Origin: Candidatus Saccharimonadia bacterium
GTDB lineage: Bacteria > Patescibacteriota > Saccharimonadia > Saccharimonadales > SZUA-47
NCBI GenBank assembly: GCA_938050265.1
Contig: CALLJT010000010.1
Span: 1-39,668 of the forward strand
Direction: 5' to 3'
DNA: 39,668 bases
Position 1 is the first letter of the stretch; every line of letters starts with the position of its first letter. Made by a program: the position numbers and the translations under genes. Positions 3,107-35,623 of the stretch are shown here, one piece after another. The notes below the pieces were generated by a model. That model saw nothing but the letters and a program-made list of their open reading frames with translations. It did no database searches and was not told the DNA's origin.

Positions 3107-4015
3107 TTATACAGTCAGTAGGTACAGTTCGAGTGCCGCATCAGGGTCAGCCACCGATTTTATATCCCTATCTAGATTGAGCAAATCACGTACGTGACGC
3201 TTGGCATCATCTTTACTGACATCGCGAGCTATTTTAAGCGTTTTTCGCGCCGAATACGGTGACTGTCCGGCTGCTATGAGTGCCGACTCAGATTGGGGCT
3301 GTGCAAACACTGCCTGCGTCAGCGAATGTAGCTGCCATGTCAGCATCGACACTATGTAGTGTGGATCAATACGCTGCTTGCGTTGGTCTCTGTATTGAGC
3401 GACTGCTGCCTGAGCGTCACCTGCAAACACTGCGTCTAGCATGTCGAATATACTACTCTGTGGAGACTGTTCAACGTGCCTGTCGATGTCGCTTTTCGTT
3501 ATCTCTGAGGTGACAATGCTCAGCTTAGCAAGTTCGTTTTGCAACATGAATGTATTCACGCCAGCTCGCTCGACCAGATACACCGCGTCACGGTACTGCA
3601 GCGTCATGCCACGCTCCTGAGCCTGAGCGACAACCCACTTCGGCAGCTCATTCTGCTTCATTTCAGGATAGTCACGAATGTCTGCGTGTTTTTTAAGCGT
3701 TTTCCACGCCACGGAACGCTTATCCAGTTTTGAACCTCGTATGACAACATCCACCTGGTCTGCAGTACGATCAATGAGCTGATCAATACGCTCAAGGAGC
3801 TGTTTGTTCTCGTGTGGCTCATGAACCACCACGAGCTTACGCTCCACAAGAAACGGCACGCTCTGCACCGCCTGAATGACTGCGTCTGCGTCTTTTTCAG
3901 AGGCGTCGATCAGCTCAACACCAAACTCCCCCCGCTCACTCCGTGCTGCGCTCACCATATCGGTCAGCGCTGCGTGTATAGCGACTTCGTTTTTGCCCGT
4001 TAGTACAGTAATCAT
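3107..4015 (-). CDS. holA: DNA polymerase III delta subunit
   Basis: 302 aa with an N-terminus and length typical of HolA (MITVLTGKNE...). holA-rpsT adjacency, as I recall it in Firmicutes-type genomes, is consistent. Confidence 0.75.
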   Translation of the reverse strand: MITVLTGKNEVAIHAALTDMVSAARSERGEFGVELIDASEKDADAVIQAVQSVPFLVERKLVVVHEPHENKQLLERIDQLIDRTADQVDVVIRGSKLDKRSVAWKTLKKHADIRDYPEMKQNELPKWVVAQAQERGMTLQYRDAVYLVERAGVNTFMLQNELAKLSIVTSEITKSDIDRHVEQSPQSSIFDMLDAVFAGDAQAAVAQYRDQRKQRIDPHYIVSMLTWQLHSLTQAVFAQPQSESALIAAGQSPYSARKTLKIARDVSKDDAKRHVRDLLNLDRDIKSVADPDAALELYLLTV

Positions 4016-4066: not shown

Positions 4067-5023
4067 TTATGCCTGACACTGTGGGCAGGTATGTGTACCG
4101 CGGCCAGCAACCTTGGATTTTTCTATAGTAGACCCACAGCGTGTGCACGGAAGACCCTCTCGCCGAAACACCTGTGCGAAACTGGTGTAGCTGCCTGACT
4201 CGCCTTCTGCATTAACGTATGTTTTATCAGTACTACCACCGTGTTCTATCGACAGTTTTAATACTCGTATGAGCTCGGTGTACAAAACTCTTAACCTATC
4301 GTCGGAAACAGCACTCACACGCTCTGTCGGGTGTATACGTGCCGCCCATAAGCTCTCGTCTGCATATATGTTTCCCACACCAGCAAGCACACTCTGGTCA
4401 AGCAGCGCCGCTTTGATCATCCTCTTGTTAGCAGTGCGCATACGTTGAACAAATATTGTGTTCACAAACGATGTATCAAGTGGCTCTGGTCCCAGCTTCT
4501 TAATAAATGGGTCGTCCTGCACCGCGTAACTCGGCAGGAGCTTGACCCAGCCAAACTTTCGCTGATCGTTGAAATACAAATGTGAACCATCCACAAACTC
4601 AAACACGACCCGTGTCGACTTGTCAGGCAGGTGACCCACAAGGCTTTCGTTTGGGTGCCCTGCTCCAAACCTGACTTCGTCGGGTGAGGTATGAAGACTG
4701 ATAGTTGAGCGCTGACGGTCCGCAGCCAACTTTGGAGTTTCAACTTTGGACTTTGAGCTGTGTTGTTCATTCGGGACAAAAACAAGCTGTCCTGTCATTT
4801 TCAGATGTATCAGGATCGAATACTCAGTACTGAGTGTGATCACCAGTGCCTTGCCTCTCCTCTGTACAGATTCGACACGAGCACCAATCAAAAACGCATC
4901 GACGTCATTACTACTGTTTGGGAACCCCTTAGGCCAGTCGTGTGACACATCGGCAACAGTTCTACCAACGATCAGACGCTCAAGCCCACGTTTAACTGTT
5001 TCAACTTCTGGTAGTTCTGGCAT
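4067..5023 (-). CDS. mutM: Formamidopyrimidine-DNA glycosylase (Fpg/MutM)
   Basis: MPELPEVETVKRG N-terminus with catalytic Pro2, an H2TH region and a C-terminal CxxC...CxxC zinc finger. The start was moved to the ATG at 5023; the longer ORF to 5179 is an upstream read-through. Confidence 0.9.
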   Translation of the reverse strand: MPELPEVETVKRGLERLIVGRTVADVSHDWPKGFPNSSNDVDAFLIGARVESVQRRGKALVITLSTEYSILIHLKMTGQLVFVPNEQHSSKSKVETPKLAADRQRSTISLHTSPDEVRFGAGHPNESLVGHLPDKSTRVVFEFVDGSHLYFNDQRKFGWVKLLPSYAVQDDPFIKKLGPEPLDTSFVNTIFVQRMRTANKRMIKAALLDQSVLAGVGNIYADESLWAARIHPTERVSAVSDDRLRVLYTELIRVLKLSIEHGGSTDKTYVNAEGESGSYTSFAQVFRREGLPCTRCGSTIEKSKVAGRGTHTCPQCQA

Positions 5024-5115
5024 GCATACTAGTATCGTGTACTGTCGTGGAACTATCAAGCACGACCGACACTTCACTCTTGATAGATCCACCCGCGTAC
5101 TCAATACTAGAGAGT

Positions 5116-5352
5116 ATGGAATCAATCTCTGATATAGCACGTGCGCGCAAACCAATTGAGCCGACGCAGATAGCAGCATTAAAAAAGTATGCTCAAGATA
5201 CGCACAACATCCAGATCTCTGTAAAACAGTCGAAACACATGTACCTCATCTACGTACCGAGTGCCGCATTCGCCCAAAAGTTCAGACACGAAACACAAGA
5301 CATAACGCGCCAATGCGAACTCGACAAGCCACTCGTGATACACATCGGATAA
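5116..5352 (+). CDS. Small hypothetical protein (possibly DUF721/DciA-like)
   Basis: 78-aa ORF from the ATG at 5116; the track ORF begins at a GTG at 5047. The resemblance to DUF721 is weak and from recall only. Confidence 0.4.
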   Translation: MESISDIARARKPIEPTQIAALKKYAQDTHNIQISVKQSKHMYLIYVPSAAFAQKFRHETQDITRQCELDKPLVIHIG

Positions 5353-6139: not shown

Positions 6140-6787
6140 CTAGTCGCGAGAGAGTCTGAGGCCAGTGTCAGATATAAGTTCGTTGAACTCTGGTACTTGT
6201 CGGATAAACAGACGGCGTACGGCGTTCATATTAGTGCCAGCCGTACCAGGAAACTCGTAGCATGACGTGAACCATCTACGCACATCGTCGCCGAGCTCTA
6301 ACACGTGCCGACGCCCATCAGGACAGACGCCTTTTTCTGCGAAATCGTCGTCAACTGACGTACCAAGTAATCGTGACGTAACGTTAAGCGCTTCGAGTGA
6401 TTCGATAAAGTTCGTATACGCTTCGTCGTTGTTACTATAGGTTTTTTCGTCGATAACAATCTGACCGTAGTTTGAATACACGCGCATCAATACGGTACCG
6501 CTCGAAACCTCAATCGTGTAACTTCGGTGATCCTGAGTCGCTACGATAGGGCCCTCTACGGTGTATCGCACTGTTCGTACGTTTAACAGTCCTTCTTCAC
6601 TGTCGCTATCGGCCACGCCACGGTTTTCAGATGTAGTCGTATCGTCTCCAGTGTTATCACTGCCAAACACTGTCCGGGCGAGCGAAGCGATACCCCATGT
6701 AATAAGGATAAACAGCAGTATACCGCCGATGATGAGTACGACCCATCGGATTTTAGAAACAACGTCAGTGTTAGCAATGAAGTCCAT
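6140..6787 (-). CDS. Membrane-anchored hypothetical protein
   Basis: 215 aa with a single N-terminal TM helix (VVLIIGGILLFILITWGIASL). No recognisable domain. Confidence 0.55.
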   Translation of the reverse strand: MDFIANTDVVSKIRWVVLIIGGILLFILITWGIASLARTVFGSDNTGDDTTTSENRGVADSDSEEGLLNVRTVRYTVEGPIVATQDHRSYTIEVSSGTVLMRVYSNYGQIVIDEKTYSNNDEAYTNFIESLEALNVTSRLLGTSVDDDFAEKGVCPDGRRHVLELGDDVRRWFTSCYEFPGTAGTNMNAVRRLFIRQVPEFNELISDTGLRLSRD

Positions 6788-14085: not shown

Positions 14086-16776
14086 CTACAGTTCGCTCCA
14101 CTTAGGGCCGATGGTCACGTCAACTTTCAGCTTCACGCCCAAGTCCGGCTTAATTCCTTCCATGATCTTTTTCATATCGGCGCCGATTTCTTCGGCATCG
14201 GACTCGGCGCACTCGATCATGATACTGTCATGCACCTGCATGATCTGGGCCGGCCATATCTTATCGCTCTTTGCTCGACGCTCTTCGAGCATCTGCTCGA
14301 CACTCACCATAGCCATCTTGGTCAGGTCGGCTGCCCCACCCTGGATCGGCATATTGATCGCTGCACGGTATGCGCCTTCACGCACCATGTACACACTTGA
14401 CTGCACGTCCGGGGTTGGTTTGCGGCGACCCATAATCGTTTCAACGTAGCCTTTGTTTTTGGCATCGTCTTTGAACTGATCGATCATGCCTTTGAGCTTT
14501 GGGCGGACTTCAAAATATTTATCTATAAAATCTTTTGCTTCGTCATACCCTATGCCTGTACCTGCAGCCAATCCGTGCACACCTTGCCCGTACAATATGC
14601 CGAAATTCACGGCTTTAGCGGCATAGCGCATTTCTTTGGTAACGTCATCTGCGTCCACACCCTGGATCAATGCAGCTGTTTCAGTGTGGATGTCACGGTC
14701 ATTGTTAAATGCGTTGATCATAGCTTCATCTGCACTCATTGCAGCTGCGATACGGAGCTCAAACTGGCTATAATCGGCGCTAATGATTACATTACCTGGC
14801 TCTGCGATAAAACCTCGTCGTATTTCACGACCCAACTCTGTCCGCACCGGAATGTTCTGTAGGTTTGGATCAGAGCTCGATAGCCGCCCGGTAGGTGTCA
14901 CCGTCAGACTCAGTGACCCATGGACCCTGTCGCCTTCGCCGACCATCGCCGGCAGCGGGTCAACATAGGTACTTTTAAGCTTAGTGTACTCACGGTAGCG
15001 CTCTATTTCTTCGACTATTGGGTGTAGGCCTTTGAGCTTCTCAAGCACGCCTACGGCCGTACTGTAATGACCGGATTTACCTTTTTTACTCACGTTAGTC
15101 GGCAGGCTCAGCGTCTCAAACAATATCTCCGACAGCTGGGCTGGGCTCGATATATTAAACTCCGTATCCGCATAGCCATAAATCGTTTGTTCAACATCGC
15201 CGATCCAGTCCTTGAGCTGCTCAGACAACTCAGCAAAAAACTCTACATCGAGCTTCATCCCGGTTCGTTCCATCCGAGCAAGTACCGGGATAATTGGCCA
15301 TTCAACGTGTTCAAGCAGCTTGATTACGCCCGTCAGTTCACTAACTTGTTCACCCTGTAGTTCAGCCAGTCTTCGAATAACTGCTACGATCTGAGGAGAC
15401 TTCGCTAGCAGCTCTTCGTCATCGAGCGCATCAAGCTCGGTGTCTATACCGATATCGCTTGCGGCTTGTTCAGTGAGTGACAGATCCTTACGCATGCTGT
15501 TGTGCACAAATGCACCGATATACGTGTCGTGCGTCACCGCAGGTAGGTTGTCTGCCCCAAGCTCTAACAGGGTTTGAAAATGTGTTTTGAGGTCATGACC
15601 GGTTATAGAGTTGAGCAGTGAACATTGAGCAACGAGCAATGGAGTAATTTCTTTTTTATTTTTGCGCAGATCGTACACATAACACGTTTTTTCATCAGAT
15701 AGGAACACGAACTTTGGGTCTACGCCGTGCTTGCCGGCACTCCGCGCGTGTAGCACAACATCACCCTCCAGCTCAACTTTGGTCTTGGCATCAACCATCA
15801 CAACCCGTGGCTTATGCAGATCATCTATATGGTTACGTTTGTCGTCCCCTGCTCCTTGCTCACTACTCACTGCTCCACTTGCCGACGCCCGCATGCCCTC
15901 CGGTAGATTCCTCAGAAGAGACCGGAACTCTAAACGTTTCAAAATATCTGCCAGCTTGTGAGCATCGAGCTTGTCCACGTCCATCTGGTCTAGATCGAGT
16001 CCAATCGGCGCGTCGTCAAACAGCCGAGCTACTTCCCGGCTCATATAGGCAGACTCCTTGCCTGCCTCAAGCTTCTTGGCCAATGAGTGCTTAATCAATG
16101 CCAGGTTTTCGTACACTCCGTCGAGTGTGTCATATTCCTGCAGCAACTTGGCTGCACCTTTTTCGCCTATGCCTGGCACGCCTGGTATGTTGTCGGAACT
16201 GTCACCCATGAGCGCTTTTGCATCCAAAAATTGATCAACGCGGATGCCGTATTTTTCTTCGAACGCTTTTGGATCATATTTGTGTATGTTGGTCAGGCCT
16301 TTTTTTAACGCATACATATGTGTGTGTTCATCTATACTCTGCAAAGCGTCCATGTCGCTGGTGATTAGCATCGTCTCGAGGCCCTCTTTGTGTGCCTTCA
16401 GAGCCATTGTGTGCATAATGTCGTCTGCTTCGTAGTCGTCGAACTCATATAGTGGCCAGTTAAACGCCGCGAGTACTTCGTGCAGTATGGGTATTTGTTC
16501 ATAAAAATCTGGCGGTGGAGGTTTACGCCCAGCTTTGTACTCAGGGTGAACTTTGAGCCGTTTGCGTATATTGGTCTTGGGCTTGTCCCACGCGACACAG
16601 ACGTAATCTGGCTCCAGCCGCTTGATCAGCTCCAGCGCCATCGCACAAAATCCGTAGACGCCACCTGTAGGCGTACCGTCCTTTGTGCGTAAATTTGGCA
16701 TCGCATAATACCCACGGTAGAAGACGCTTTTGCCGTCAATAATCGCTAATTTTTTCCGAGACGCTACTCCTGCCAT
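14086..16776 (-). CDS. polA: DNA polymerase I (5'-3' exonuclease, degenerate 3'-5' exonuclease-like region, polymerase domain)
   Basis: 896 aa. The N-terminal FEN-like domain reads LAIIDGKSVFYRGYYA. The C-terminus carries the family A motifs DYSQFELRI, RYAAKAVNFGILYG and QVHDSI. Confidence 0.97.
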   Translation of the reverse strand: MAGVASRKKLAIIDGKSVFYRGYYAMPNLRTKDGTPTGGVYGFCAMALELIKRLEPDYVCVAWDKPKTNIRKRLKVHPEYKAGRKPPPPDFYEQIPILHEVLAAFNWPLYEFDDYEADDIMHTMALKAHKEGLETMLITSDMDALQSIDEHTHMYALKKGLTNIHKYDPKAFEEKYGIRVDQFLDAKALMGDSSDNIPGVPGIGEKGAAKLLQEYDTLDGVYENLALIKHSLAKKLEAGKESAYMSREVARLFDDAPIGLDLDQMDVDKLDAHKLADILKRLEFRSLLRNLPEGMRASASGAVSSEQGAGDDKRNHIDDLHKPRVVMVDAKTKVELEGDVVLHARSAGKHGVDPKFVFLSDEKTCYVYDLRKNKKEITPLLVAQCSLLNSITGHDLKTHFQTLLELGADNLPAVTHDTYIGAFVHNSMRKDLSLTEQAASDIGIDTELDALDDEELLAKSPQIVAVIRRLAELQGEQVSELTGVIKLLEHVEWPIIPVLARMERTGMKLDVEFFAELSEQLKDWIGDVEQTIYGYADTEFNISSPAQLSEILFETLSLPTNVSKKGKSGHYSTAVGVLEKLKGLHPIVEEIERYREYTKLKSTYVDPLPAMVGEGDRVHGSLSLTVTPTGRLSSSDPNLQNIPVRTELGREIRRGFIAEPGNVIISADYSQFELRIAAAMSADEAMINAFNNDRDIHTETAALIQGVDADDVTKEMRYAAKAVNFGILYGQGVHGLAAGTGIGYDEAKDFIDKYFEVRPKLKGMIDQFKDDAKNKGYVETIMGRRKPTPDVQSSVYMVREGAYRAAINMPIQGGAADLTKMAMVSVEQMLEERRAKSDKIWPAQIMQVHDSIMIECAESDAEEIGADMKKIMEGIKPDLGVKLKVDVTIGPKWSEL

Positions 16777-23232: not shown

Positions 23233-23946
23233 ATGCAACCAGACCTACAAAATGGCGAAGAAAACCCCTACGGCTTTATATTCGACCAGAATTCTCAGAC
23301 GACACCCGGCACCAACACGGCGGCTGTCGGAGCAGACAAAACCAAGCAGTACCTCCTGTTTGGCGTATTCGCACTCGCTATCTTAGCAATTGCAGGTATT
23401 GCAGCAACCATATTCCTGAAGCCCACCCCACCGTCAGCACCTGAGCTCGTCCGTGTACGTGCAATTCAAAACGAACTTATCCGCGTCCGCGAAATCGGCA
23501 ACAAAAACCTTGGACAATACGATCTACGAAAAGATGTAGACACTATCAATCTTGTCCTGCAAACCGACACTGCAACAATTAGCGGCCTCATCAGAACCAG
23601 AGGTGTCGTCACCCTGCCTGGCGAACTATCACAGTTCAAAAACTCAACCTACGATACAAGTCTGCAAAACGCGCTCAGTAACGACACACATGACACGGTC
23701 TACCGCGATATCGTGGACCAGCTGGCTGGACAGTACTATGAATCAGTCAAAGCGGCCGAAAACCGTGCGGTCAGCAGAACCGAACAGGCCCAACTAGCAG
23801 CAGTACGTAGCAACATCGAAATCACGTTCGACTTCGAAGACCCGTCTGAGAGTACCGAGTCTACCGAGCGACAAGACACAGCGACAGAACCAAGCGAACC
23901 TGACGCAGACACCGCCGATGAACCTATCCCAAGCCTGTTTAATTAA
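23233..23946 (+). CDS. Membrane-anchored hypothetical protein
   Basis: 237 aa with one TM helix (YLLFGVFALAILAIAGIAATIFL) and an acidic C-terminal tail. Confidence 0.55.
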   Translation: MQPDLQNGEENPYGFIFDQNSQTTPGTNTAAVGADKTKQYLLFGVFALAILAIAGIAATIFLKPTPPSAPELVRVRAIQNELIRVREIGNKNLGQYDLRKDVDTINLVLQTDTATISGLIRTRGVVTLPGELSQFKNSTYDTSLQNALSNDTHDTVYRDIVDQLAGQYYESVKAAENRAVSRTEQAQLAAVRSNIEITFDFEDPSESTESTERQDTATEPSEPDADTADEPIPSLFN

Positions 23947-25659: not shown

Positions 25660-27174
25660 CTACGACGATCCCTGGGTTTTGTCCCGCAAAAAATCCTCTG
25701 CGCGGTAGCTAATAATCCTGCGTCGATCCGTGTTCAGCCGCTTGAGCTGACCATAGGCTTTTTTCATCATAGGGTCAGTCTTGAACAACTCTGCGTTTTT
25801 TTCGATCGCGCGCCAATACAGGCCATCCCAGATGTCGCACCAGTCGCCTTTTTTATAATGACTCATGCTGCGTATGTAGTTGCTGCTGCTGATAGCCGGG
25901 AGTGTTCCGTGCTTAGCGAACGCCGCCCCCTGACTCACGCCGTATACGAACGGCACTGCAAGCCACTCATACATGTCTCCGCACATCTCCATGAACCACC
26001 GATACACTTCGTCCGGGTGAAACTCACTGAGGAAGCAGATATTACCTATCACCATGAGTTGTTCAGTTTCGTGCGTATATGACCGGTCGTGGATTTTGAG
26101 TATAACGTCGTCGACCGGCGGAATCCCTGTCGTCCCACGGTACCAGTCAACTGTCATGCGTCTGGTGTGGCCCAATGTATTCGCAGTACGGAGTGCTGTG
26201 TGTCGTTTACGGTACACTCCGCGGTAATATTCCCGCCACCCAAGTACTCCGCGCACAACAAGCTCTACGTCCTCTATACGGACCTTTCCATGACCGAGCT
26301 GTGCGACTACGGCCTGCACGATGTCATGAGGGCTCAAAAGTCCGATGTTCAATGCATGATTAACTGCTGGATGGTGCAGCCAAGGTGCCTCACCGTCGAT
26401 CGCCTCCGAATAGGCGGCAAACCGCCCGAGTCTACCGCTCGCGAACTCGTCGAGCCATTTCATCGCTTCAACACGGCTCGTTGGCCATGGGAAATCGTTT
26501 AGACTTCCTGGGTTGCCTGAAAAATACTTCTCTACATACGCCTCAGCCTCATCCACATATTCGTTCGACCCAAACACCTGGAACGACGGCAGCTGTGTGC
26601 TTTTCGGTATGCGTTTACGCTTGGCGTGGTCTTGCTCCCATGATCCCTCAAGCGGCTTGTATGTTTCTGGGTCAATGAGTACATTGAACCGCTCGCGCTG
26701 CCACTGATAAAACGCCTGAAAACTTGTGTCGCCTCGCTCAGAAAAAAACCTATCGCTTTCTTCATGCGATATATAAAAATTAGGGCTCTGCAACACCGAC
26801 ACCGCCGGCGCTTCAGGGTGGGAACGAATCGCTTCCATAACGCGCCGGCTCAGGATATCGTCAGAAAATTCATAGACATACACGTCTGTGAAATCCTTGA
26901 GTTTCTCGACGATGTCACCGCTCTCAGTCAGTTTATGATGATCAATATACGTCACGCTGTAGCCAGCTGGCCACAATTCTTCTTTCATGTATCGGTTCAT
27001 GCTGGCACGCAGCAACACCAGCTTCTGTTTGTGGATCATCAGCCCATACTGACGATCACTCCCAAACAGAAGCGGCTCTTCAACGAGCACGATCTCATCC
27101 ACATCCTGCGGGATATGCTCTACAGCAAACAGCTGGTTTGGGTACAGCAATAGACTTTTTTTGATTCCACCCAT
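25660..27174 (-). CDS. Cryptochrome/photolyase-family protein (photolyase-related, CryPro/FeS-BCP-like class)
   Basis: ~504 aa. The N-terminus (LLLYPNQLF) and C-terminus (WF...DAYEW-like MYEWLAVPFVYGVSQ...SSSNYI) have features of COG3046-type proteins. ATG at 27174 is preferred over the TTG at 27219. Confidence 0.75.
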   Translation of the reverse strand: MGGIKKSLLLYPNQLFAVEHIPQDVDEIVLVEEPLLFGSDRQYGLMIHKQKLVLLRASMNRYMKEELWPAGYSVTYIDHHKLTESGDIVEKLKDFTDVYVYEFSDDILSRRVMEAIRSHPEAPAVSVLQSPNFYISHEESDRFFSERGDTSFQAFYQWQRERFNVLIDPETYKPLEGSWEQDHAKRKRIPKSTQLPSFQVFGSNEYVDEAEAYVEKYFSGNPGSLNDFPWPTSRVEAMKWLDEFASGRLGRFAAYSEAIDGEAPWLHHPAVNHALNIGLLSPHDIVQAVVAQLGHGKVRIEDVELVVRGVLGWREYYRGVYRKRHTALRTANTLGHTRRMTVDWYRGTTGIPPVDDVILKIHDRSYTHETEQLMVIGNICFLSEFHPDEVYRWFMEMCGDMYEWLAVPFVYGVSQGAAFAKHGTLPAISSSNYIRSMSHYKKGDWCDIWDGLYWRAIEKNAELFKTDPMMKKAYGQLKRLNTDRRRIISYRAEDFLRDKTQGSS

Positions 27175-27299
27175 AATACTCTTATGGTTTATTGTCGCAA
27201 AGATACTGCAGTATAGCAAGCAAGTAGTTGGCAGGCGTATACCATCACCACATAAGGGGCAAGATTACTCCTGCCTCATTGCTCCTTGCTCGCTACTCC

Positions 27300-29291: not shown

Positions 29292-30989
29292 CTACATAGA
29301 CTCAGGGGTATCGATACCAAGTGTCGTGAGTCCGTGGTTGAGTACATTGATGTAACGCGTGAGCAACTCCCAGCGGTGCGGTATACCCGAGCCTGCAACC
29401 CGGTTGTTTTCGTAGAATTGGTTAAACGTCTGAGCCAGTTCATACAAATAGAGACACAGCGTATTAGGCGCGAGGTGCTCAACGGCTTCGCCAAACACAC
29501 CCTCGTACTGAGCAAGCTTGTGCGCCAACCGTCGGTCATATTCGTCGAGGGACAGCGTCGCGATATCAACTTCTCCGTTGTCGTCATTGGTTTTTGACAG
29601 AGCTATTTTGCGAGCACGCACGTATGCATATTGCAGGTACGGTCCGCTGTTGCCTTTTGTACTAACAGACTCGTTGACGTCAAACGCTACATCACTGCCG
29701 ACGGCATATTTCAAAAATTCATATTTGACAGCGCCGAGCATGACTTTGTCTTTTTCATCCGAACCAGACTCTTGTGCCACGACTTTTGTCACGGCGTCGA
29801 GCACGTCTATCGCCCGCGTGACGTTGCCCAAACGTGAACTCATTTTGGATCCATCAGCGAACTTAACGATGCCGTTTGTAAGGTGAGTCATCGTACCTCG
29901 ATACCGAGAATCGATGTCATATAGTGCCGCCCATACGACTTTCATGTACGCTTTCTGGTCTGATCCAGTTATCAGAATACGCCTGTCGAAATCATAGTCT
30001 TCTTTTTCCTGCGTGAGCACGCCAAGATCCTTTGTCTCGTACGTAGGTAGGCCTTCTGACGTCTGAAATACTCGTGTATGCAGACCTTCTTTCTCGCCCC
30101 TGTACACAATTGCGCGCTCAGACTCTTCGAACACACCATCCTCGAGCCCTCCACGTACAAGCGCCATTCCACGCTCAGCCGTCGTACTTTCAGGGTAGTA
30201 CTTCTGAAAATCATCCACGTTAATCCGATCAAAGAAATAATGAAAATACTCAGTAGACCACTCACGAGCAGCAAAGTACACTGCAGAAACGTCAGAATGC
30301 GTGCTTTTGTCGGTATGGAACGCGTATATCTGTTTATTCAGCTCACGGATCTCTGCCTCATCCGAGCCACCCTGCTCAAACGCAGCAGTACCCTTGACGT
30401 AGTGCTGAGTAATGAACCGTGCACGGACCTGAGGGTCGTCGTTTTGCTGCGCTTCTGCATACCCCTCAGGGTCTTTCAGAATTGACCACACTGCCTTGGC
30501 GACATGCATCCCGACATCCCCGCCAAATGTTGTTCGTGTGACGTTCGCACCAGCCACCTCCAGCATACGCGCAAGTGCGTTTCCGAGGATCGTCTGATAC
30601 AGATGCCCTGTGTGCAGCTCTTTGAACCAGTTCGGGCAGGCGTACTCGAGCACTACGTTTTTGGCGTCGTAGTCTGGCTGCGTGAGCGCAAACCCCTGCA
30701 CACTATAGTCCTGGGAGCTACTCCATATAGCCTCGTCATTGAGCCGGATATTCAAAAACCCCGGGCCAGCAACACTCACCTCAGCAAAGTCGTCGAGCTC
30801 CTGTAGCGTGTCCGCCAACTGCTCAGCTATTTCACGCGGATTTTTACCAACTTCCTTTGCAAGCTGCATTGCCACATTGCTCGCCACGTCACCAAACTGT
30901 TCGTCAGGCACCTCAACAGTCGGCGTCACATCAACTCCGAACACTGCTTTGACTGCCGCTTTTAATCTATCTTGTACTTCTGTGATCAT
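29292..30989 (-). CDS. argS: Arginine--tRNA ligase
   Basis: 565 aa. HIGH-type motif (KELHTGHL), an anticodon-binding DALR-like C-terminus and a terminal Met. Confidence 0.95.
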   Translation of the reverse strand: MITEVQDRLKAAVKAVFGVDVTPTVEVPDEQFGDVASNVAMQLAKEVGKNPREIAEQLADTLQELDDFAEVSVAGPGFLNIRLNDEAIWSSSQDYSVQGFALTQPDYDAKNVVLEYACPNWFKELHTGHLYQTILGNALARMLEVAGANVTRTTFGGDVGMHVAKAVWSILKDPEGYAEAQQNDDPQVRARFITQHYVKGTAAFEQGGSDEAEIRELNKQIYAFHTDKSTHSDVSAVYFAAREWSTEYFHYFFDRINVDDFQKYYPESTTAERGMALVRGGLEDGVFEESERAIVYRGEKEGLHTRVFQTSEGLPTYETKDLGVLTQEKEDYDFDRRILITGSDQKAYMKVVWAALYDIDSRYRGTMTHLTNGIVKFADGSKMSSRLGNVTRAIDVLDAVTKVVAQESGSDEKDKVMLGAVKYEFLKYAVGSDVAFDVNESVSTKGNSGPYLQYAYVRARKIALSKTNDDNGEVDIATLSLDEYDRRLAHKLAQYEGVFGEAVEHLAPNTLCLYLYELAQTFNQFYENNRVAGSGIPHRWELLTRYINVLNHGLTTLGIDTPESM

Positions 30990-31065: not shown

Positions 31066-31407
31066 TCACAGGTCTAATACTTTCCTGAGGCCATCATCTA
31101 TCTGTCGCTGTGCCTTCTGTGATAGCTGCCCAACGTATTCCTTGAGAAATCGTCTATCAATCGTTATTAACTGTGACACATTCGCGACTGAATCTTTGGG
31201 TAGCCCTTCTTCTTTTTTGTGTAACATTACGTTGCCTGGAGACATAGCCATCTTGAGATTTGAAGTGATGCCTATCGCTAATACTGTTCTTATTTTGGTT
31301 TCGTTAAAATCGTCAGACTGAACGACGAGTATTGGTCGTCTATAGCCAGGTTCTGAGCCAGTTGGTTCTGGTAAATCTACCCACCATATCGCTCCTCTAA
31401 CTACCAT
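31066..31407 (-). CDS. mazF: MazF/PemK-family endoribonuclease toxin
   Basis: RGAIWWVDLPEPTGSEPGYRRPILVVQSDDFN. Overlaps the mazE stop (ATGGTAG). Confidence 0.88.
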   Translation of the reverse strand: MVVRGAIWWVDLPEPTGSEPGYRRPILVVQSDDFNETKIRTVLAIGITSNLKMAMSPGNVMLHKKEEGLPKDSVANVSQLITIDRRFLKEYVGQLSQKAQRQIDDGLRKVLDL

Positions 31408-31643
31408 TCCCCGTGTCCGTTGTTAATGGAATCGTACTGCATTTTGTAGAGCGGTGGATCCAACGAAGAATCTTCTTGCGAATACAGTTCATTCAGTTGT
31501 CTTTTAGTAGCTTCACCCTCGATACGCTCTATATACTCTTCTAGAGCCCGTGCGTAAAACTTACTTCTGGAGCCGCCCATCTTTTTCGCGTGGTGCTCCG
31601 CCTTACTAAAAGTCGAGTCTGGGATAGATACTGCTATTTTCAT
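31401..31643 (-). CDS. mazE: Ribbon-helix-helix (CopG/MazE-type) antitoxin
   Basis: MKIAVSIPDSTFSKAEHHAKKMGGSRSKFYARALEEYI. ATG at 31643 is preferred over the GTG at 31649. Confidence 0.8.
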   Translation of the reverse strand: MKIAVSIPDSTFSKAEHHAKKMGGSRSKFYARALEEYIERIEGEATKRQLNELYSQEDSSLDPPLYKMQYDSINNGHGEW

Positions 31644-31649
31644 ACCCAC

Positions 31650-31678
31650 AGTATAACAAAAAGTATTACGCTATCCAA
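31650..31678 (-). promoter_or_regulatory. Putative mazEF promoter TTGGAT-N17-TATACT, 6 nt from the ATG (leaderless-type)
   Basis: -10 at 31650-31655 and -35 at 31673-31678. The heptad array starts 2 nt further upstream. Confidence 0.45.
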
Positions 31679-31679
31679 A

Positions 31680-31749
31680 CGTCTCACGTCTCACGTCTCA
31701 CGTCTCACGTCTCACGTCTCACGTCTCACGTCTCACGTCTCACGTCTCA
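31680..31749. repeat. Perfect tandem heptanucleotide array (CGTCTCA)x10
   Basis: Counted directly: ten uninterrupted identical units. They are followed by the palindrome CTCAC-TA-GTGAG, a partial inverted unit. Confidence 0.97.
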
Positions 31750-31809
31750 CTAGTGAGTATGCCCTACTTATCCCCATTCTGAAACAAAATACTATATACT
31801 CTTAGCTAT

Positions 31810-32535
31810 ATGGGAGACCCAACGAAACTCATTGTACAAGCTGTGCGCCTCTGGATGGCACGCTTTGCTCGGTGGCTCAACGCCGTAACCAACGGCGCCG
31901 TGTTGCCCGTGCATATCACTATACTGTCGCTTCTCGGCCACTTCAGCGTCGTGTGGGCACTCTGGGACTCTCGCCCAGTGCTCGCTGCGGGACTACTGAC
32001 TGGGTTTGGCCTCCTTGATGCACTCGACGGTGCACTCGCGAGAGAACAAGGAACAGCGAGCAAACTTGGCATGCTGTTTGACGCAGTTACCGACCGACTC
32101 AAAGAAACGCTGGTCTACGTCGGCCTGATCGTGTACGCAGGCAATCATGTATCCGAAGTCCGTCCCTGGGTAATCGTCGCGGTTGCTGGTACGTCCTTGC
32201 TTGTCAGTTATGTAAAAGCCAAAAGCGAAATGGCTGTCGCCGACTCTCATGCGGACCGCCAGAAACTCAACCAGATGTTTTCCATCGGCCTCGCACGGTA
32301 TGAAATCCGCACGACAATCGTAGTCGTTGGGCTCCTCATGCCCGTGCTGCTCGCACCGCTCCTGCACTTCACGATCGCTATCAACCTCATGACTGCAGCG
32401 CTGCGGTTTCTCCAAGCGGCAGAGGTCCTACAAAAAGAGAACTCAGAAGAGTCATCCGACTCTCAAAACACAACAAAAACGCTCCCACAACGCACAGCCA
32501 CGTCCAGGAAACAAAAGAAAGACAAGAAAAAATGA
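31810..32535 (+). CDS. CDP-alcohol phosphatidyltransferase
   Basis: Exact signature D-x2-DG-x2-AR-x8-G-x3-D-x3-D (DALDGALAREQGTASKLGMLFDAVTD). Multi-TM protein with a Lys-rich tail. Confidence 0.88.
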   Translation: MGDPTKLIVQAVRLWMARFARWLNAVTNGAVLPVHITILSLLGHFSVVWALWDSRPVLAAGLLTGFGLLDALDGALAREQGTASKLGMLFDAVTDRLKETLVYVGLIVYAGNHVSEVRPWVIVAVAGTSLLVSYVKAKSEMAVADSHADRQKLNQMFSIGLARYEIRTTIVVVGLLMPVLLAPLLHFTIAINLMTAALRFLQAAEVLQKENSEESSDSQNTTKTLPQRTATSRKQKKDKKK

Positions 32536-33086
32536 GCGACCTTCTCCCTGCACTTTGGTTTTTCTTACCGGGCGCATACGCCAACATGGCACCTATATTT
32601 GCTAACAACATACCACTGCTCAAACCGTACACATACCCGCTCGACCATCACAAATCATACAGAGGCGTCCGGATATTTGGTGATCACAAAACCTACCGCG
32701 GTGTTATCTCAGGCACGATTTTCGGGGCGCTTACTGGGCTGGTGCAATACCTGCTCGCATCGAATTTTGACGCGCTGTCGGACATTGCAAGCCTCACTGA
32801 TTACACGTCTCTCTCCGTCGTCGCACTTGGCGCTGCTATCGGGTTTGGTAGCCTCATGGGAGACGCCGTTAAAAGCTTCTTCAAACGACAAGCCCGTGTC
32901 GCTCCTGGTAAAAACTGGATACCGTTCGACCAGATAGATTTCGTGGTTGGCGGACTGATCGCTAGCCTACCGTTTGTCAGGCTAGAAATATCGACATACC
33001 TTATCATCCTGGCCGCCGCCGGACTATTGCACCCGGCCATCAACGTCCTTGGTTGGATGCTGCACCTCAAAGATAAACCACTCTAG
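32532..33086 (+). CDS. CDP-archaeol synthase-like (CarS / DUF46 family) cytidylyltransferase
   Basis: LPGAYANMAPIF...GDHKTYRGVISG...GDAVKSFFKRQ...DQIDFVVGG...LKDKPL parallels the archaeal CarS sequence as I recall it. ATGA start/stop overlap with the upstream gene. Confidence 0.75.
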   Translation: MSDLLPALWFFLPGAYANMAPIFANNIPLLKPYTYPLDHHKSYRGVRIFGDHKTYRGVISGTIFGALTGLVQYLLASNFDALSDIASLTDYTSLSVVALGAAIGFGSLMGDAVKSFFKRQARVAPGKNWIPFDQIDFVVGGLIASLPFVRLEISTYLIILAAAGLLHPAINVLGWMLHLKDKPL

Positions 33087-33100
33087 TACCCCGCGCAGGG

Positions 33101-33775
33101 CTACTGATGTTTATAAATATATACTGGCTGGTCAACATACCTGTCCAGTGTCTGTGCAAGTACATCAACCTGCTGGTGCTGCTCGCCATCACCAGTAACG
33201 AGCGCGTTATACGCAATATACGGCTGCAGTACGTCCATGCCAGTTAAAAACAACGTACCGTGCAGAAGCGGGTACAGATGCTGAATCATGCTCGCTCCAT
33301 GCTCTCCGCCAGGCCCATAGGCGCTCTCTTGATCGTTGGTTGTGGCTACGACCAGCGCCTGCTTGCCACGCAAGAACCCTTGTGCATACCGGTGGGAGCT
33401 ATCAGACACAATCCCTCTCGCGCATACCTTGTCAAACCAACCTTTCATGATAGCTGGTGCGGCACTCCACCATACAGGGAACTCAAATATAACAATGTCT
33501 GCAGCACGCAGTCGCTGTATCTCTTGCTGGATGTCCTCTGCGAACCCTTCAGATCCACCTGCAGCCACACGACTCTGTTCGAGATTATAATCTTGATTCG
33601 GTCCACCCGACGTTTTGAAGTCCCATTTCTCTGCTACTGCGTGAAACCCGCTCGCGTACAGATCAGATATCACGACCGTGTCGCCACGCCTCTCATAGAA
33701 CCCAACGACCTGACTATGCAGACGAGCCCCGAACGAGTGAGTATCTTGATACGCGTATACCACAAGCACATTCAT
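33101..33775 (-). CDS. Flavodoxin-like-fold NAD(P)H:quinone oxidoreductase
   Basis: MNVLVVYAYQDTHSF...FEFPVWWSAAPAIMKGWFDKV is typical of the NQO1/Flavodoxin_2 family. Confidence 0.78.
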   Translation of the reverse strand: MNVLVVYAYQDTHSFGARLHSQVVGFYERRGDTVVISDLYASGFHAVAEKWDFKTSGGPNQDYNLEQSRVAAGGSEGFAEDIQQEIQRLRAADIVIFEFPVWWSAAPAIMKGWFDKVCARGIVSDSSHRYAQGFLRGKQALVVATTNDQESAYGPGGEHGASMIQHLYPLLHGTLFLTGMDVLQPYIAYNALVTGDGEQHQQVDVLAQTLDRYVDQPVYIYKHQ

Positions 33776-34975: not shown

Positions 34976-35623
34976 CTACACTTCCGAGAGCAGAGCTTTT
35001 TTGAGCTCGCTCATTTTCGAAAACAACATATCAGGCTCAGCTGGTTCCATTGCCTCGACGCCCCCAAGCCCCCAGGTAACGCCGTACACACGCACGCCAG
35101 CCTTTTTGCTCGACGCAACATCCCTGGGCTCGTCACCGACGTAAATTACGTGATCTTTGCTGAGTTTGTGGCGCTCAATGATTCGTTCAAGCGCTTTTTC
35201 TTTCCCAAAAACAGTTTTCTCAGACACAACGAAATCAAACGCCGGAAAATCGTTCGCCTGCAGAAACTCCTGAACCAGAGCATGCTCGTTTGACGTCAGT
35301 ACACCGATCCCCACACCTGCCTGCTTGAGCGCAACTAACATAGGTATTGCGCCGCGATACGGCTTAACCTCTCCCATGTGAGCTTTCATCTCTTTGCGAA
35401 CCAGCATAATCAGTCGGGGTACGACAAACCAACGGATATTCAGATGCTTCATGGCTTTTTTGTAGCCCATAGTACGCAAATCAGAAAACTGATCAGGTGT
35501 CACTGGGTTCATACCAAGTTGCTCAGCATGATCATTATAAATACGCACTATCAAATCCAGCGTATTAGCCAGCGTTCCATCAAAATCAAATATAACCGTC
35601 AGATCAGTCTTCTTTTTTCCCAT
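34976..35623 (-). CDS. HAD-superfamily phosphatase (phosphoglycolate phosphatase-like)
   Basis: VIFDFDGTLANT (motif I), LTSN, K and GDEPRD motifs. Confidence 0.85.
   Translation of the reverse strand: MGKKKTDLTVIFDFDGTLANTLDLIVRIYNDHAEQLGMNPVTPDQFSDLRTMGYKKAMKHLNIRWFVVPRLIMLVRKEMKAHMGEVKPYRGAIPMLVALKQAGVGIGVLTSNEHALVQEFLQANDFPAFDFVVSEKTVFGKEKALERIIERHKLSKDHVIYVGDEPRDVASSKKAGVRVYGVTWGLGGVEAMEPAEPDMLFSKMSELKKALLSEV

What the first reader, a model, noticed from the sequence alone, without database searches (positions are those of the whole stretch)
31650..31760. Perfect 10 x 7-bp heptad array abutting the -35 box of an RHH-antitoxin promoter: candidate iteron operator or phase-variable tract
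(CGTCTCA)x10 at 31680-31749 is uninterrupted and ends in a partial inverted unit (CTCAC-TA-GTGAG). It starts 2 nt upstream of the putative mazE -35 box (TTGGAT 31673-31678; -10 TATACT 31650-31655; ATG 31643). It ends 60 nt upstream of the divergent lipid operon at 31810. MazE here is a ribbon-helix-helix protein. RHH repressors are known to bind arrays of short direct or inverted repeats. The closest precedent is the omega repressor of inc18 plasmids, which binds 7-10 consecutive 7-bp heptads upstream of its promoters. The array is therefore a plausible cooperative operator for MazE or MazEF. Alternatively, a perfect 7-bp microsatellite is a classic slipped-strand contingency locus that could change the phasing between the two divergent promoters. 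Perfect identity of ten units indicates recent expansion or active homogenisation. Each unit contains a CGTCTC (BsmBI-type) site.
Basis: partly seen in the sequence, partly recalled or inferred. Interest (0 to 1): 0.8.

Follow-up and report, generated by a model that had tools for sequence, protein, structure and literature searches.

The report
Ordinary 7-bp microsatellite between two promoters
The perfect ten-copy CGTCTCA repeat is real, but it is most likely an ordinary slippage-made 7-bp microsatellite of a kind common in environmental bacteria; the neighbouring antitoxin almost certainly binds a different sequence, its own -10 box.

Summary
(CGTCTCA)x10 is perfect at 31680-31749. It lies 1 nt from the -35 of a leaderless mazE promoter and 60 nt from the divergent lipid gene.

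The favoured interpretation, a MazE iteron operator like omega, is not supported.
- The antitoxin is a MazE6/ChpI-type ribbon-helix-helix (RHH) protein.
- It keeps every residue that M. tuberculosis MazE6 uses to contact its operator CCGGTTATACTATCTGTA.
- The window has GTTATACT as the mazE -10 box.
- Four of five distinct homologue promoters carry GTTATAC half-sites there, three of them as the palindrome GGTATAAC-N4-GTTATACC. None has heptads.

The same heptad array (at least 4 units) occurs in at least 120 places in unrelated bacterial phyla. There it sits in tandem, convergent or divergent intergenic spacers, with no MazE nearby. In those loci 7-bp arrays far outnumber arrays of periods 5, 6 and 8-11, as described for heptanucleotide long simple-sequence repeats.

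The mazEF-plus-array segment is an insertion into a conserved argS | lipid-operon junction.

The array is probably length-unstable. Paralogous copies in another genome carry 4, 12 and 12 units. However, it lies upstream of both core promoters, so it is at most a variable spacer and not an on/off switch. Copy-number variation at this locus could not be tested.

Verdict: a new member of a known kind, of low interest.

The parts
31680..31749 (.). Perfect (CGTCTCA)x10 heptanucleotide microsatellite. Tandem Repeats Finder extends it to 31679-31750 (10.3 copies).
   Evidence: The right junction is reproduced in an independent Logan contig.
31746..31757 (.). 12-bp palindrome CTCACTAGTGAG, formed by the last repeat unit plus the flank. 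Probably chance. It has the orientation that is rare among inverted heptad pairs elsewhere.
31673..31678 (-). Putative -35 (TTGGAT) of the mazE promoter, 1 nt from the array.
   Evidence: TTG-type -35 boxes 17-18 nt upstream of the -10 are also seen at other leaderless genes of the contig (read by me from the output).
31650..31657 (-). GTTATACT. This is the -10 box (TATACT), 6 nt before the ATG, and the predicted MazE operator half-site. It is identical to the core of the M. tuberculosis mazEF6 operator.
31663..31669 (-). GTAATAC, a degenerate left half-site. It matches 5 of 7 positions of GTATAAC and its spacer is 1 nt longer than in the homologues' palindrome GGTATAAC-N4-GTTATACC.
   Evidence: inference
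31401..31643 (-). mazE: MazE6/ChpI-type ribbon-helix-helix antitoxin, 80 aa, apparently on a leaderless transcript.
31066..31407 (-). mazF: PemK/MazF-type toxin, 113 aa. It overlaps mazE by 7 nt.
31795..31800 (+). Putative -10 (TATACT) of the lipid operon, 9 nt before the ATG. The surrounding AAATACTATATACTCT is conserved in relative L126.
31810..32535 (+). CDP-alcohol phosphatidyltransferase, resembling archaetidylinositol-phosphate and phosphatidylinositol-phosphate synthases. First gene of the divergent lipid operon.
32532..33086 (+). CarS-like CDP-archaeol synthase family gene, second gene of the operon.
29292..30989 (-). argS (arginyl-tRNA synthetase). In relatives argS starts 38 bp from the lipid gene (L127), or a different gene sits between them (L126, 52-bp gap). 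This marks mazEF plus the array as an insertion.

Best explanation
The array is an ordinary heptanucleotide long simple-sequence repeat. It is a non-coding 7-bp microsatellite that grew by replication slippage in the spacer between two back-to-back leaderless promoters: mazEF on the minus strand and the CDP-alcohol-transferase/CarS-like operon on the plus strand. The spacer arose when a mazEF module was inserted into a formerly tight argS | lipid-operon junction.

The array is not the antitoxin's operator. MazE (MazE6/ChpI-type ribbon-helix-helix protein) most likely represses its own promoter by binding the GTTATACT -10 box at 31657-31650, as its M. tuberculosis relative does.

Perfect identity of ten units means recent expansion, so the tract is probably length-unstable in 7-bp steps. 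Because it sits upstream of both -35 regions, it acts at most as a variable-length spacer that changes the distance and rotational phase between the two promoters. It is not an on/off switch.

Shown: the array itself, the promoter layout, the antitoxin family and its conserved DNA-reading residues, the conserved operator motif, the wide occurrence of the same heptad without MazE, and the insertion.

Inferred: slippage origin, instability at this locus, MazE binding at the -10 box, and little or no regulatory role for the array.
For: 1. Antitoxin family and DNA-reading residues.
- The N-terminal 44 residues match PDB 7wj0, the M. tuberculosis MazE6 ribbon-helix-helix domain (E 8e-7).
- PMC9477884 shows that nMazE6 binds the 18-bp operator CCGGTTATACTATCTGTA.
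- In that complex K5 and A7 contact bases, and M4, K5, F15, S28, R29 and S30 contact the backbone.
- All of these residues are invariant in the window protein, as M1, K2, A4, F12, S25, R26 and S27.

2. Operator motif.
- The window has GTTATACT exactly at the mazE -10.
- Homologue promoters read: GGTATAAC-CATA-GTTATACC (L001), GGTATAAC-CAAA-GTTATACC (L129-132), GGTATAAC-CGTA-GTTATACC (Calothrix ChpI, L133), GTTATACT (L002) and GTGATACT-CGG-GTCATACT (L134).
- None of these loci has a heptad array.

3. The heptad is not tied to MazE.
- (CGTCTCA) of at least 4 units occurs in at least 120 stretches across many phyla, including long-read assemblies and isolates.
- tblastn finds no MazE homologue in any of those loci, and only one MazF homologue, 5 kb from its array.
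- Among clearly intergenic cases the flanking genes are tandem in 28, convergent in 20 and divergent in 10, so the arrays are not promoter-specific.

4. Period 7 dominates.
- In those loci, 165 arrays of at least 4 copies have period 7, against 0-4 for periods 5, 6, 8 and 9.
- More than 500 bp from the target arrays, 36 arrays in 29 sequence classes have period 7, against 0-7 for periods 5, 6 and 8-11 and 14 for period 4.
- This matches the published picture that heptanucleotide repeats are the most abundant long simple-sequence repeats (Mrazek 2007, as summarised in PMC4679880).

5. Instability. In L026, three paralogous units with near-identical flanks carry 4, 12 and 12 heptads. Cyanothece strains differ mostly by 7-nt indels in heptamer tracts (PMC4679880).

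6. Insertion. Relatives have argS(-) 38 bp from the lipid gene, or a different gene between them with a 52-bp gap, and no toxin-antitoxin genes.

7. Leaderless layout. Many genes of the contig have TATACT, CATACT or TATAAT 6-9 nt before the ATG. This places the array at about -38 to -107 of the mazE promoter and about -58 to -127 of the lipid promoter.
Against: - No second strain or read-level data exist for this organism, so instability and neutrality at this locus are untested.
- The array directly abuts the -35 box, a position where upstream elements or regulators can act.
- GTTATACT is also close to this lineage's general -10 consensus. Its conservation in the window alone is therefore weak evidence for an operator. 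The case rests on homologues from other lineages and on the M. tuberculosis experiment.
- The heptad in the register GTCTCAC shares 4 of 7 positions with GTTATAC, so weak non-specific MazE binding cannot be excluded.
- I could not run control heptamers against the genome collection. I therefore cannot say whether CGTCTCA is commoner than other heptads.
Confidence: 0.7

Rival explanations
1. Rheostat-type contingency locus. The tract is a selected hypermutable element. Its 7-bp gains and losses tune transcription of mazEF, the lipid operon or both, by changing the distance and helical phase between the divergent promoters or between a promoter and an upstream-bound factor. The meningococcal nadA TAAA tract and the H. 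influenzae hmw 7-bp repeats work this way.
For: - Ten perfect units imply recent slippage.
- The same heptad changes copy number between paralogous copies elsewhere.
- The array abuts the mazE -35 and lies between two promoters.
- 7-bp promoter-region repeats do control expression in H. influenzae hmw1A (PMC8262952, listed).
Against: - The array is outside the -35/-10 spacer and outside the transcripts of both genes, so no simple switch is available.
- No upstream-binding factor is known.
- The neighbouring genes, a toxin-antitoxin module and phospholipid synthases, are not typical contingency genes.
- Identical arrays elsewhere sit more often between convergent or tandem genes than between divergent ones.
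- No population data are available.
Confidence: 0.15
2. Omega-like cooperative operator. MazE or MazEF dimers polymerise on the ten heptads and repress one or both divergent promoters.
For: - Ribbon-helix-helix proteins can read tandem short repeats (general knowledge).
- The inc18 omega heptad is WATCACW (recalled, not checked here). In the register TCTCACG the repeat unit shares the TCAC core, matching 5 of 7 positions.
- The array abuts the -35 box.
Against: - The protein is of MazE6/ChpI type. Neither it nor any of 40 family members matches Pfam's Omega repressor family.
- Its base-reading residues equal those of MazE6, whose operator is GTTATACT. That motif is present at the -10.
- None of the five distinct homologue promoters has heptads.
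- At least 120 identical arrays elsewhere lack any MazE homologue.
Confidence: 0.05
3. Member of a cross-phylum family of CGTCTCA-type heptad elements with dedicated biology. Examples would be binding arrays for a widespread heptad-reading or nucleoid protein, or structured elements that spread or are generated by something other than plain slippage.
For: - The identical heptad occurs in many phyla, and several genomes carry several arrays.
- About 20 of the 120 loci show inverted arrays, (TGAGACG)n - GC hairpin - (CGTCTCA)n, almost always in that orientation.
- L026 and L053 carry the tract inside a larger repeated unit.
Against: - No control heptamer could be scanned. With about one heptad array per 20 kb in such genomes and about 1,200 heptamer classes (my estimate), more than 120 hits among 185,579 genomes is expected without special biology.
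- No conserved flanks and no enriched neighbouring gene were found.
- The window array has no inverted partner and no hairpin.
Confidence: 0.07
4. Assembly artefact: a collapsed, expanded or chimeric repeat.
For: - The k=31 Logan assembly breaks inside the array.
- The copy number rests on one contig.
Against: - The right junction is reproduced independently.
- Both flanks are syntenic with relatives.
- At 70 bp the array is shorter than ordinary reads.
- Identical arrays exist in long-read and isolate genomes.
Confidence: 0.03

Closest known systems
Heptanucleotide long simple-sequence repeats of prokaryotes (Mrazek, Guo & Shah 2007, as summarised in PMC4679880). This class includes cyanobacterial 7-bp repeats and the TAACTGA arrays of Beggiatoaceae, Cyanobacteria and Bacteroidetes.
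   Same: - 7-bp unit, head-to-tail, intergenic, far longer than chance allows.
- 7-bp arrays dominate other periods in the genomes that carry them.
- Copy number changes in 7-nt steps.
- Function is generally unknown.
   Different: - The unit sequence is different (CGTCTCA).
- TAACTGA arrays in Maribeggiatoa sit just upstream of start codons, whereas this array is upstream of both promoters.
- Only one contig of this genome is available, so genome-wide abundance is unknown.
M. tuberculosis MazE6 - mazEF6 operator (PDB 7wj0; PMC9477884)
   Same: - Ribbon-helix-helix antitoxin with identical DNA-contact residues.
- The operator core GTTATACT coincides with the -10 box of a promoter that sits just upstream of the gene.
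- A MazF/PemK toxin gene lies downstream.
   Different: - About 36% identity overall, in an uncultured bacterium of unknown phylum.
- The window has a degenerate second half-site, whereas many homologues have a perfect palindrome GGTATAAC-N4-GTTATACC.
- Binding was not tested here. This comparison concerns the real operator, not the heptad array.
Omega repressor heptads of inc18 plasmids
   Same: - 7-10 consecutive 7-bp units upstream of a promoter, next to a gene for a ribbon-helix-helix protein.
- A shared TCAC core.
   Different: - The consensus WATCACW is not met.
- The protein is not in the Omega family.
- Homologue promoters lack heptads.
- The setting is chromosomal.
Promoter-region 7-bp repeats with proven roles: H. 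influenzae hmw1A/hmw2A (PMC8262952) and V. cholerae ctxAB TTTTGAT heptads (bioRxiv 10.1101/2021.05.14.444153)
   Same: Tandem heptads near a promoter whose number can vary between strains.
   Different: - Per its abstract, the ctx heptads recruit transcriptional regulators to the promoter.
- From my own knowledge, the hmw repeats lie between the promoter and the coding region.
- Here no binder is known, the array is outside both transcripts, and variation is unobserved.

Membership tests
Heptanucleotide long simple-sequence repeat | Head-to-tail repeats of a 5-11 bp unit (here 7 bp), with total length beyond chance expectation | tested here: met
   10.3 copies at 100% identity. 9 pattern matches against 0.51 expected.
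Heptanucleotide long simple-sequence repeat | Non-coding location | tested here: met
   Lies in the 166-bp spacer between mazE (ATG 31643) and the lipid gene (ATG 31810). The only ORF across it is a 71-aa artefact that runs antisense over the start of mazE.
Heptanucleotide long simple-sequence repeat | Copy number varies between close relatives | not testable with these tools
   No second genome or read set of this species. Indirect support comes from paralogous units in L026 with 4, 12 and 12 copies.
Omega-type (inc18) heptad operator | Several consecutive 7-bp units immediately upstream of the regulated promoter | tested here: met
   The array starts 1 nt from the -35.
Omega-type (inc18) heptad operator | Heptad consensus WATCACW (recalled from the literature, not checked here) | tested here: not met
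   The best register, TCTCACG, matches 5 of 7. Position 2 (A) and position 7 (W) fail.
Omega-type (inc18) heptad operator | The cognate repressor belongs to the Omega repressor family | tested here: not met
   The window protein has no Pfam match. The family members match RHH_1, RHH_3 and RHH_5 only. The closest solved structure is MazE6.
Omega-type (inc18) heptad operator | Cooperative binding of the repressor to the heptads | not testable with these tools
   Needs EMSA or footprinting.
MazE6/ChpI-type antitoxin with an operator overlapping the -10 box | Ribbon-helix-helix N-terminal domain | tested here: met
   - PDB 7wj0, E 8e-7.
- 15 of 40 family members hit RHH_1.
- AlphaFold2 mean pLDDT 80; the top Foldseek hits are ribbon-helix-helix proteins but none reaches E 0.001, the best being 7wj0 at E 0.038.
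MazE6/ChpI-type antitoxin with an operator overlapping the -10 box | MazE6 DNA-contact residues conserved | tested here: met
   M1, K2, A4, F12, S25, R26 and S27 are invariant with MazE6 M4, K5, A7, F15, S28, R29 and S30.
MazE6/ChpI-type antitoxin with an operator overlapping the -10 box | GTTATAC(T/C) motif at the -10 of its own promoter | tested here: met
   Window 31657-31650. Also in L001, L002, L129-132, L133 and M. tuberculosis. L134 has a variant.
MazE6/ChpI-type antitoxin with an operator overlapping the -10 box | Heptad arrays are part of the family's promoters | tested here: not met
   None of the five distinct homologue promoters has a tandem heptad.
Simple-sequence-repeat contingency (phase-variation) locus | The tract lies where unit changes switch expression: within an ORF, between -35 and -10, or in the 5' leader | tested here: not met
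   The array is upstream of both -35 regions and outside both leaderless transcripts.
Simple-sequence-repeat contingency (phase-variation) locus | Observed within-population length variation linked to expression | not testable with these tools
   No reads or strains are available.
Plasmid iterons | Direct repeats of about 17-22 bp next to a rep gene or replication origin and bound by the initiator | tested here: not met
   The unit is 7 bp. The context is chromosomal housekeeping genes (polA, dnaG, rpoD, argS) with no rep gene.

The most novel reading that the evidence does not exclude
CGTCTCA-type heptads may be more than slippage debris. They could be a cross-phylum class of intergenic elements with their own biology. 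In other genomes they often occur as inverted arrays that extend terminator-like hairpins in a fixed orientation. One copy here may have been recruited as a length-variable module abutting the -35 of a toxin-antitoxin promoter. That would couple mazEF and membrane-lipid operon expression to repeat number.
Probability: 0.1. Interest if true: 0.6.

Novelty: new member of a known kind. Interest (0 to 1): 0.25.

Why it matters
As it stands, the finding matters little. It adds one more heptanucleotide microsatellite to a well-known but functionally unexplained class, in an uncultured bacterium.

The useful outcome is a correction. The antitoxin's operator can be predicted with good support as the GTTATACT -10 box. 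The MazE6/ChpI family turns out to share a conserved GGTATAAC-N4-GTTATACC operator across phyla.

If the tract did tune the divergent promoters, it would be an example of repeat-length control of a toxin-antitoxin module outside pathogens.

The side observation, inverted heptad arrays flanking terminator hairpins in many phyla, may deserve its own census.

Tried and rejected
- Exact-protein look-ups for MazF and MazE found no second contig. The lipid gene gave only a Logan contig that breaks inside the array. Copy-number variation therefore could not be measured.
- A scan of the genome collection with the lipid protein found no relatives.
- A metagenome scan for the right junction gave 0 hits.
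- A viral scan for four heptad units gave 1 hit, too few to use as a frequency control.
It is a bacterium (rpoD, dnaG, polA).
- The idea that the BsmBI-type CGTCTC site matters was dropped. The site is neither enriched nor clearly avoided outside the array, and related arrays elsewhere use units without the site, such as CGTTTCA, CGACTCA and CATCTCA.
- A structured single-stranded DNA or RNA was rejected. The strands form only 4-bp ACGT mini-hairpins (-10.9 and -11.9 kcal/mol), and the centroid structures are almost unpaired.
- No Rfam family matches the region.
- A chimeric join at the repeat was rejected on synteny.
- Mrazek 2007 could not be read directly. It is cited through PMC4679880.

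Full report
**The observation**

The plus strand at 31680-31749 reads CGTCTCA ten times without a single deviation. Tandem Repeats Finder reports 31679-31750, period 7, 10.3 copies, 100% matches. It is the only array of this kind in the 39.7-kb window.

The array runs into CTAGTGAG, which gives the 12-bp palindrome CTCACTAGTGAG at 31746-31757. A Logan assembly of run ERR9287625 stops inside the array, as a k=31 graph would, and reproduces the right junction. The copy number rests on the deposited contig only.

**Genes around the array**

On the minus strand there are two genes:
- An 80-aa antitoxin at 31401-31643.
- A PemK/MazF toxin at 31066-31407 (Pfam E 1.7e-25).

On the plus strand there are also two:
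- A CDP-alcohol phosphatidyltransferase at 31810-32535.
- A CarS-like gene at 32532-33086.

The contig is bacterial and chromosomal, carrying rpoD, dnaG, polA and argS. The taxon could not be named.

**Promoters**

The consensus scan finds TGGATA/16 nt/TATACT upstream of mazE. That call is not significant on its own.

Listing the upstream regions of all genes shows a pattern. Many genes have TATACT, CATACT or TATAAT 6-9 nt before the ATG and no Shine-Dalgarno sequence, for example polA, the genes at 3107-4015, 4067-5179, 6140-6787 and 33101-33775, mazE, and the lipid gene. Others have AGGAG-type ribosome-binding sites.

The lipid gene has TATACT at 31795-31800. The motif AAATACTATATACTCT around it is conserved in a relative whose protein is only 58% identical.

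The array thus occupies about -38 to -107 of the mazE promoter and about -58 to -127 of the lipid promoter. It is outside both core promoters and both transcripts.

**Is the array the antitoxin's operator?**

The antitoxin has no Pfam hit of its own. Its N-terminal 44 residues match PDB 7wj0, the ribbon-helix-helix domain of M. tuberculosis MazE6 (E 8e-7).

A profile search finds 1,439 relatives. Sources annotate some of them as CopG/Arc/MetJ regulators, ChpI or MazE6. 15 of 40 sampled relatives hit Pfam RHH_1 and none hits the Omega repressor family.

An AlphaFold2 model has mean pLDDT 80. Its best structural matches are nMazE6 and other ribbon-helix-helix proteins such as PutA, CopG, AtaR and Arc, though none reaches E 0.001.

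PMC9477884 shows that the nMazE6 dimer binds the 18-bp sequence CCGGTTATACTATCTGTA, which contains the -10 box TATACT. K5 and A7 read bases. M4, K5, F15, S28, R29 and S30 hold the backbone. All of these residues are invariant in the window protein.

The window carries GTTATACT exactly at the mazE -10.

Five distinct homologue promoters were fetched:

| Locus | Sequence at the -10 region |
|---|---|
| L001 | GGTATAAC-CATA-GTTATACC |
| L129-132 | GGTATAAC-CAAA-GTTATACC, then AGTCT-ATG |
| L133 (Calothrix ChpI) | GGTATAAC-CGTA-GTTATACC, then AGTCT-ATG |
| L002 | GTTATACT |
| L134/135 | GTGATACT-CGG-GTCATACT |

None of these loci contains any tandem heptad. The family's operator is therefore a GTTATAC-type site overlapping the -10. 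The window has the right arm intact and a degenerate left arm (GTAATAC, spacer 5).

One caveat applies. TATACT is also this lineage's general -10 consensus, so the argument leans on the homologues from other lineages and on the published experiment.

**Is the heptad private to this promoter?**

It is not. The hosts include Saprospiraceae and other Bacteroidota, Verrucomicrobia, Acidimicrobiia, Gemmatimonadota, Chloroflexi, Gammaproteobacteria, Planctomycetes and Treponema. They include long-read assemblies and isolates, and some genomes have several arrays.

The flanks are not conserved. Arrays grade into one-mutation variants such as CGTTTCA, CGACTCA, CATCTCA and CGTCTTA.

tblastn with the window's MazE finds nothing in these loci. 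MazF finds one hit, 5 kb from its array.

With a crude ORF caller, the clearly intergenic arrays lie between tandem genes in 28 cases, convergent genes in 20 and divergent genes in 10. They are no more tied to promoters than to gene ends.

In the same loci, 7-bp arrays dominate:
- 165 arrays of at least 4 copies have period 7, against 0-4 for periods 5, 6, 8 and 9.
- More than 500 bp from the target arrays, 36 arrays in 29 sequence classes have period 7. Periods 5, 6 and 8-11 have 0-7 each, and period 4 has 14.

This is the published behaviour of heptanucleotide long simple-sequence repeats (Mrazek 2007, as summarised in PMC4679880). That paper also documents TAACTGA arrays in several phyla and 7-nt indels between strains.

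A rough estimate of mine runs as follows. With about one heptad array per 20 kb in such genomes, about 1,200 heptamer classes and 185,579 genomes, more than 120 hits for one class needs no special explanation. I could not run control heptamers to test this.

**Instability**

L026 holds three tandem paralogous units with almost identical flanks. Their CGTCTCA-type tracts are 4, 12 and 12 units long. This tract can therefore change length quickly relative to point mutation.

For the window locus itself nothing could be measured.

**Origin of the spacer**

In relatives the gene order is glutamate dehydrogenase - DPRP - argS(-) | CDP-alcohol transferase(+) - CarS-like - flavodoxin-like(-).
- In L127, only 38 bp separate argS from the lipid gene.
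- In L126, an esterase gene sits between them, 52 bp from the lipid gene.

The window has mazF, mazE and the array at that junction. The toxin-antitoxin module is therefore an insertion into a variable spot. The array lies between the module's promoter and the ancestral lipid promoter. Whether it arrived with the module or grew in place is unknown.

**Other checks**

- Single strands of the array fold only into 4-bp ACGT mini-hairpins.
- No Rfam family matches the region.
- CGTCTC sites are not notably enriched or avoided outside the array.

**Conclusion**

The array is real. It is best read as an ordinary, recently expanded heptanucleotide microsatellite that serves at most as a variable spacer between two divergent leaderless promoters.

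MazE most likely autoregulates at its -10 box. The omega-like operator idea fails three of its defining tests. A graded, repeat-number-dependent effect on the promoters remains possible but has no evidence behind it.

Noticed in passing
L105 4530-4650; L120 4850-4965; also L116, L114, L021, L032, L075, L083, L087, L123, L045, L023, L094: In about 20 of the 120 loci from other genomes, the array is the 3' arm of a long palindrome: (TGAGACG)n - GC-rich stem-loop - (CGTCTCA)n. In L105 and L120 it starts right after a stop codon. 24 of 31 inverted 6-mer hits lie on the 5' side of the array, so the orientation is nearly fixed. Flanks carry such hits in 31 of 236 cases, against 29 of 410 control windows. 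It looks as if heptad arrays extend terminator-like hairpins.
   Followed up: partly
L026 2840-3300; similar in L053 3245-3880 and L061 7645-7772: The heptad tract sits inside a larger tandemly repeated unit of about 170-200 bp with conserved flanks (ATTAAAATCCCGCCATCCAT...array...CGCAATGGTGCGTAAAACGCACCCT). The three L026 copies carry 4, 12 and 12 heptads.
   Followed up: partly
window, upstream of genes at 3107-4015, 4067-5179, 6140-6787, 14086-16776, 23233-23946, 31401-31643, 31810-32535, 33101-33775, 34976-35623: Many genes have a -10-like box (TATACT, CATACT or TATAAT) only 6-9 nt before the ATG and no Shine-Dalgarno sequence. Other genes have AGGAG. The organism appears to use leaderless mRNAs widely, with a consensus close to TATACTGTAGGTATG.
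   Followed up: partly
L001 250-275; L129 about 1175-1200; L133 about 1175-1200; window 31650-31670: The MazE6/ChpI antitoxin family shares a conserved operator-like palindrome, GGTATAAC-N4-GTTATACC, whose right arm is the -10 box. It is seen in the Calothrix locus and in two loci of unnamed origin, and the same core forms the M. tuberculosis mazEF6 operator. In L129-132 and L133 the start codon follows 5 nt after it.
   Followed up: yes
window 31066-31750, compared with L126 3835-4654 and L127 4963-5000: mazEF plus the array occupy a variable insertion spot between argS and the lipid operon. One relative has nothing there (38-bp spacer). Another has an esterase gene.
   Followed up: yes
window 31810-33086: This bacterium pairs a CarS-like CDP-archaeol-synthase family gene with a CDP-alcohol transferase resembling archaetidylinositol-phosphate synthase (NCBIfam E 6e-21, below the family cut-off). 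The pairing is conserved in relatives. L127 has a PHP-domain gene inserted between the two.
   Followed up: no
window 26099-26106 (-): This is the only other exact GTTATACT in the window. It would be a possible second MazE site or leaderless promoter. It lies within the 25660-27219 (-) ORF region and was not examined.
   Followed up: no
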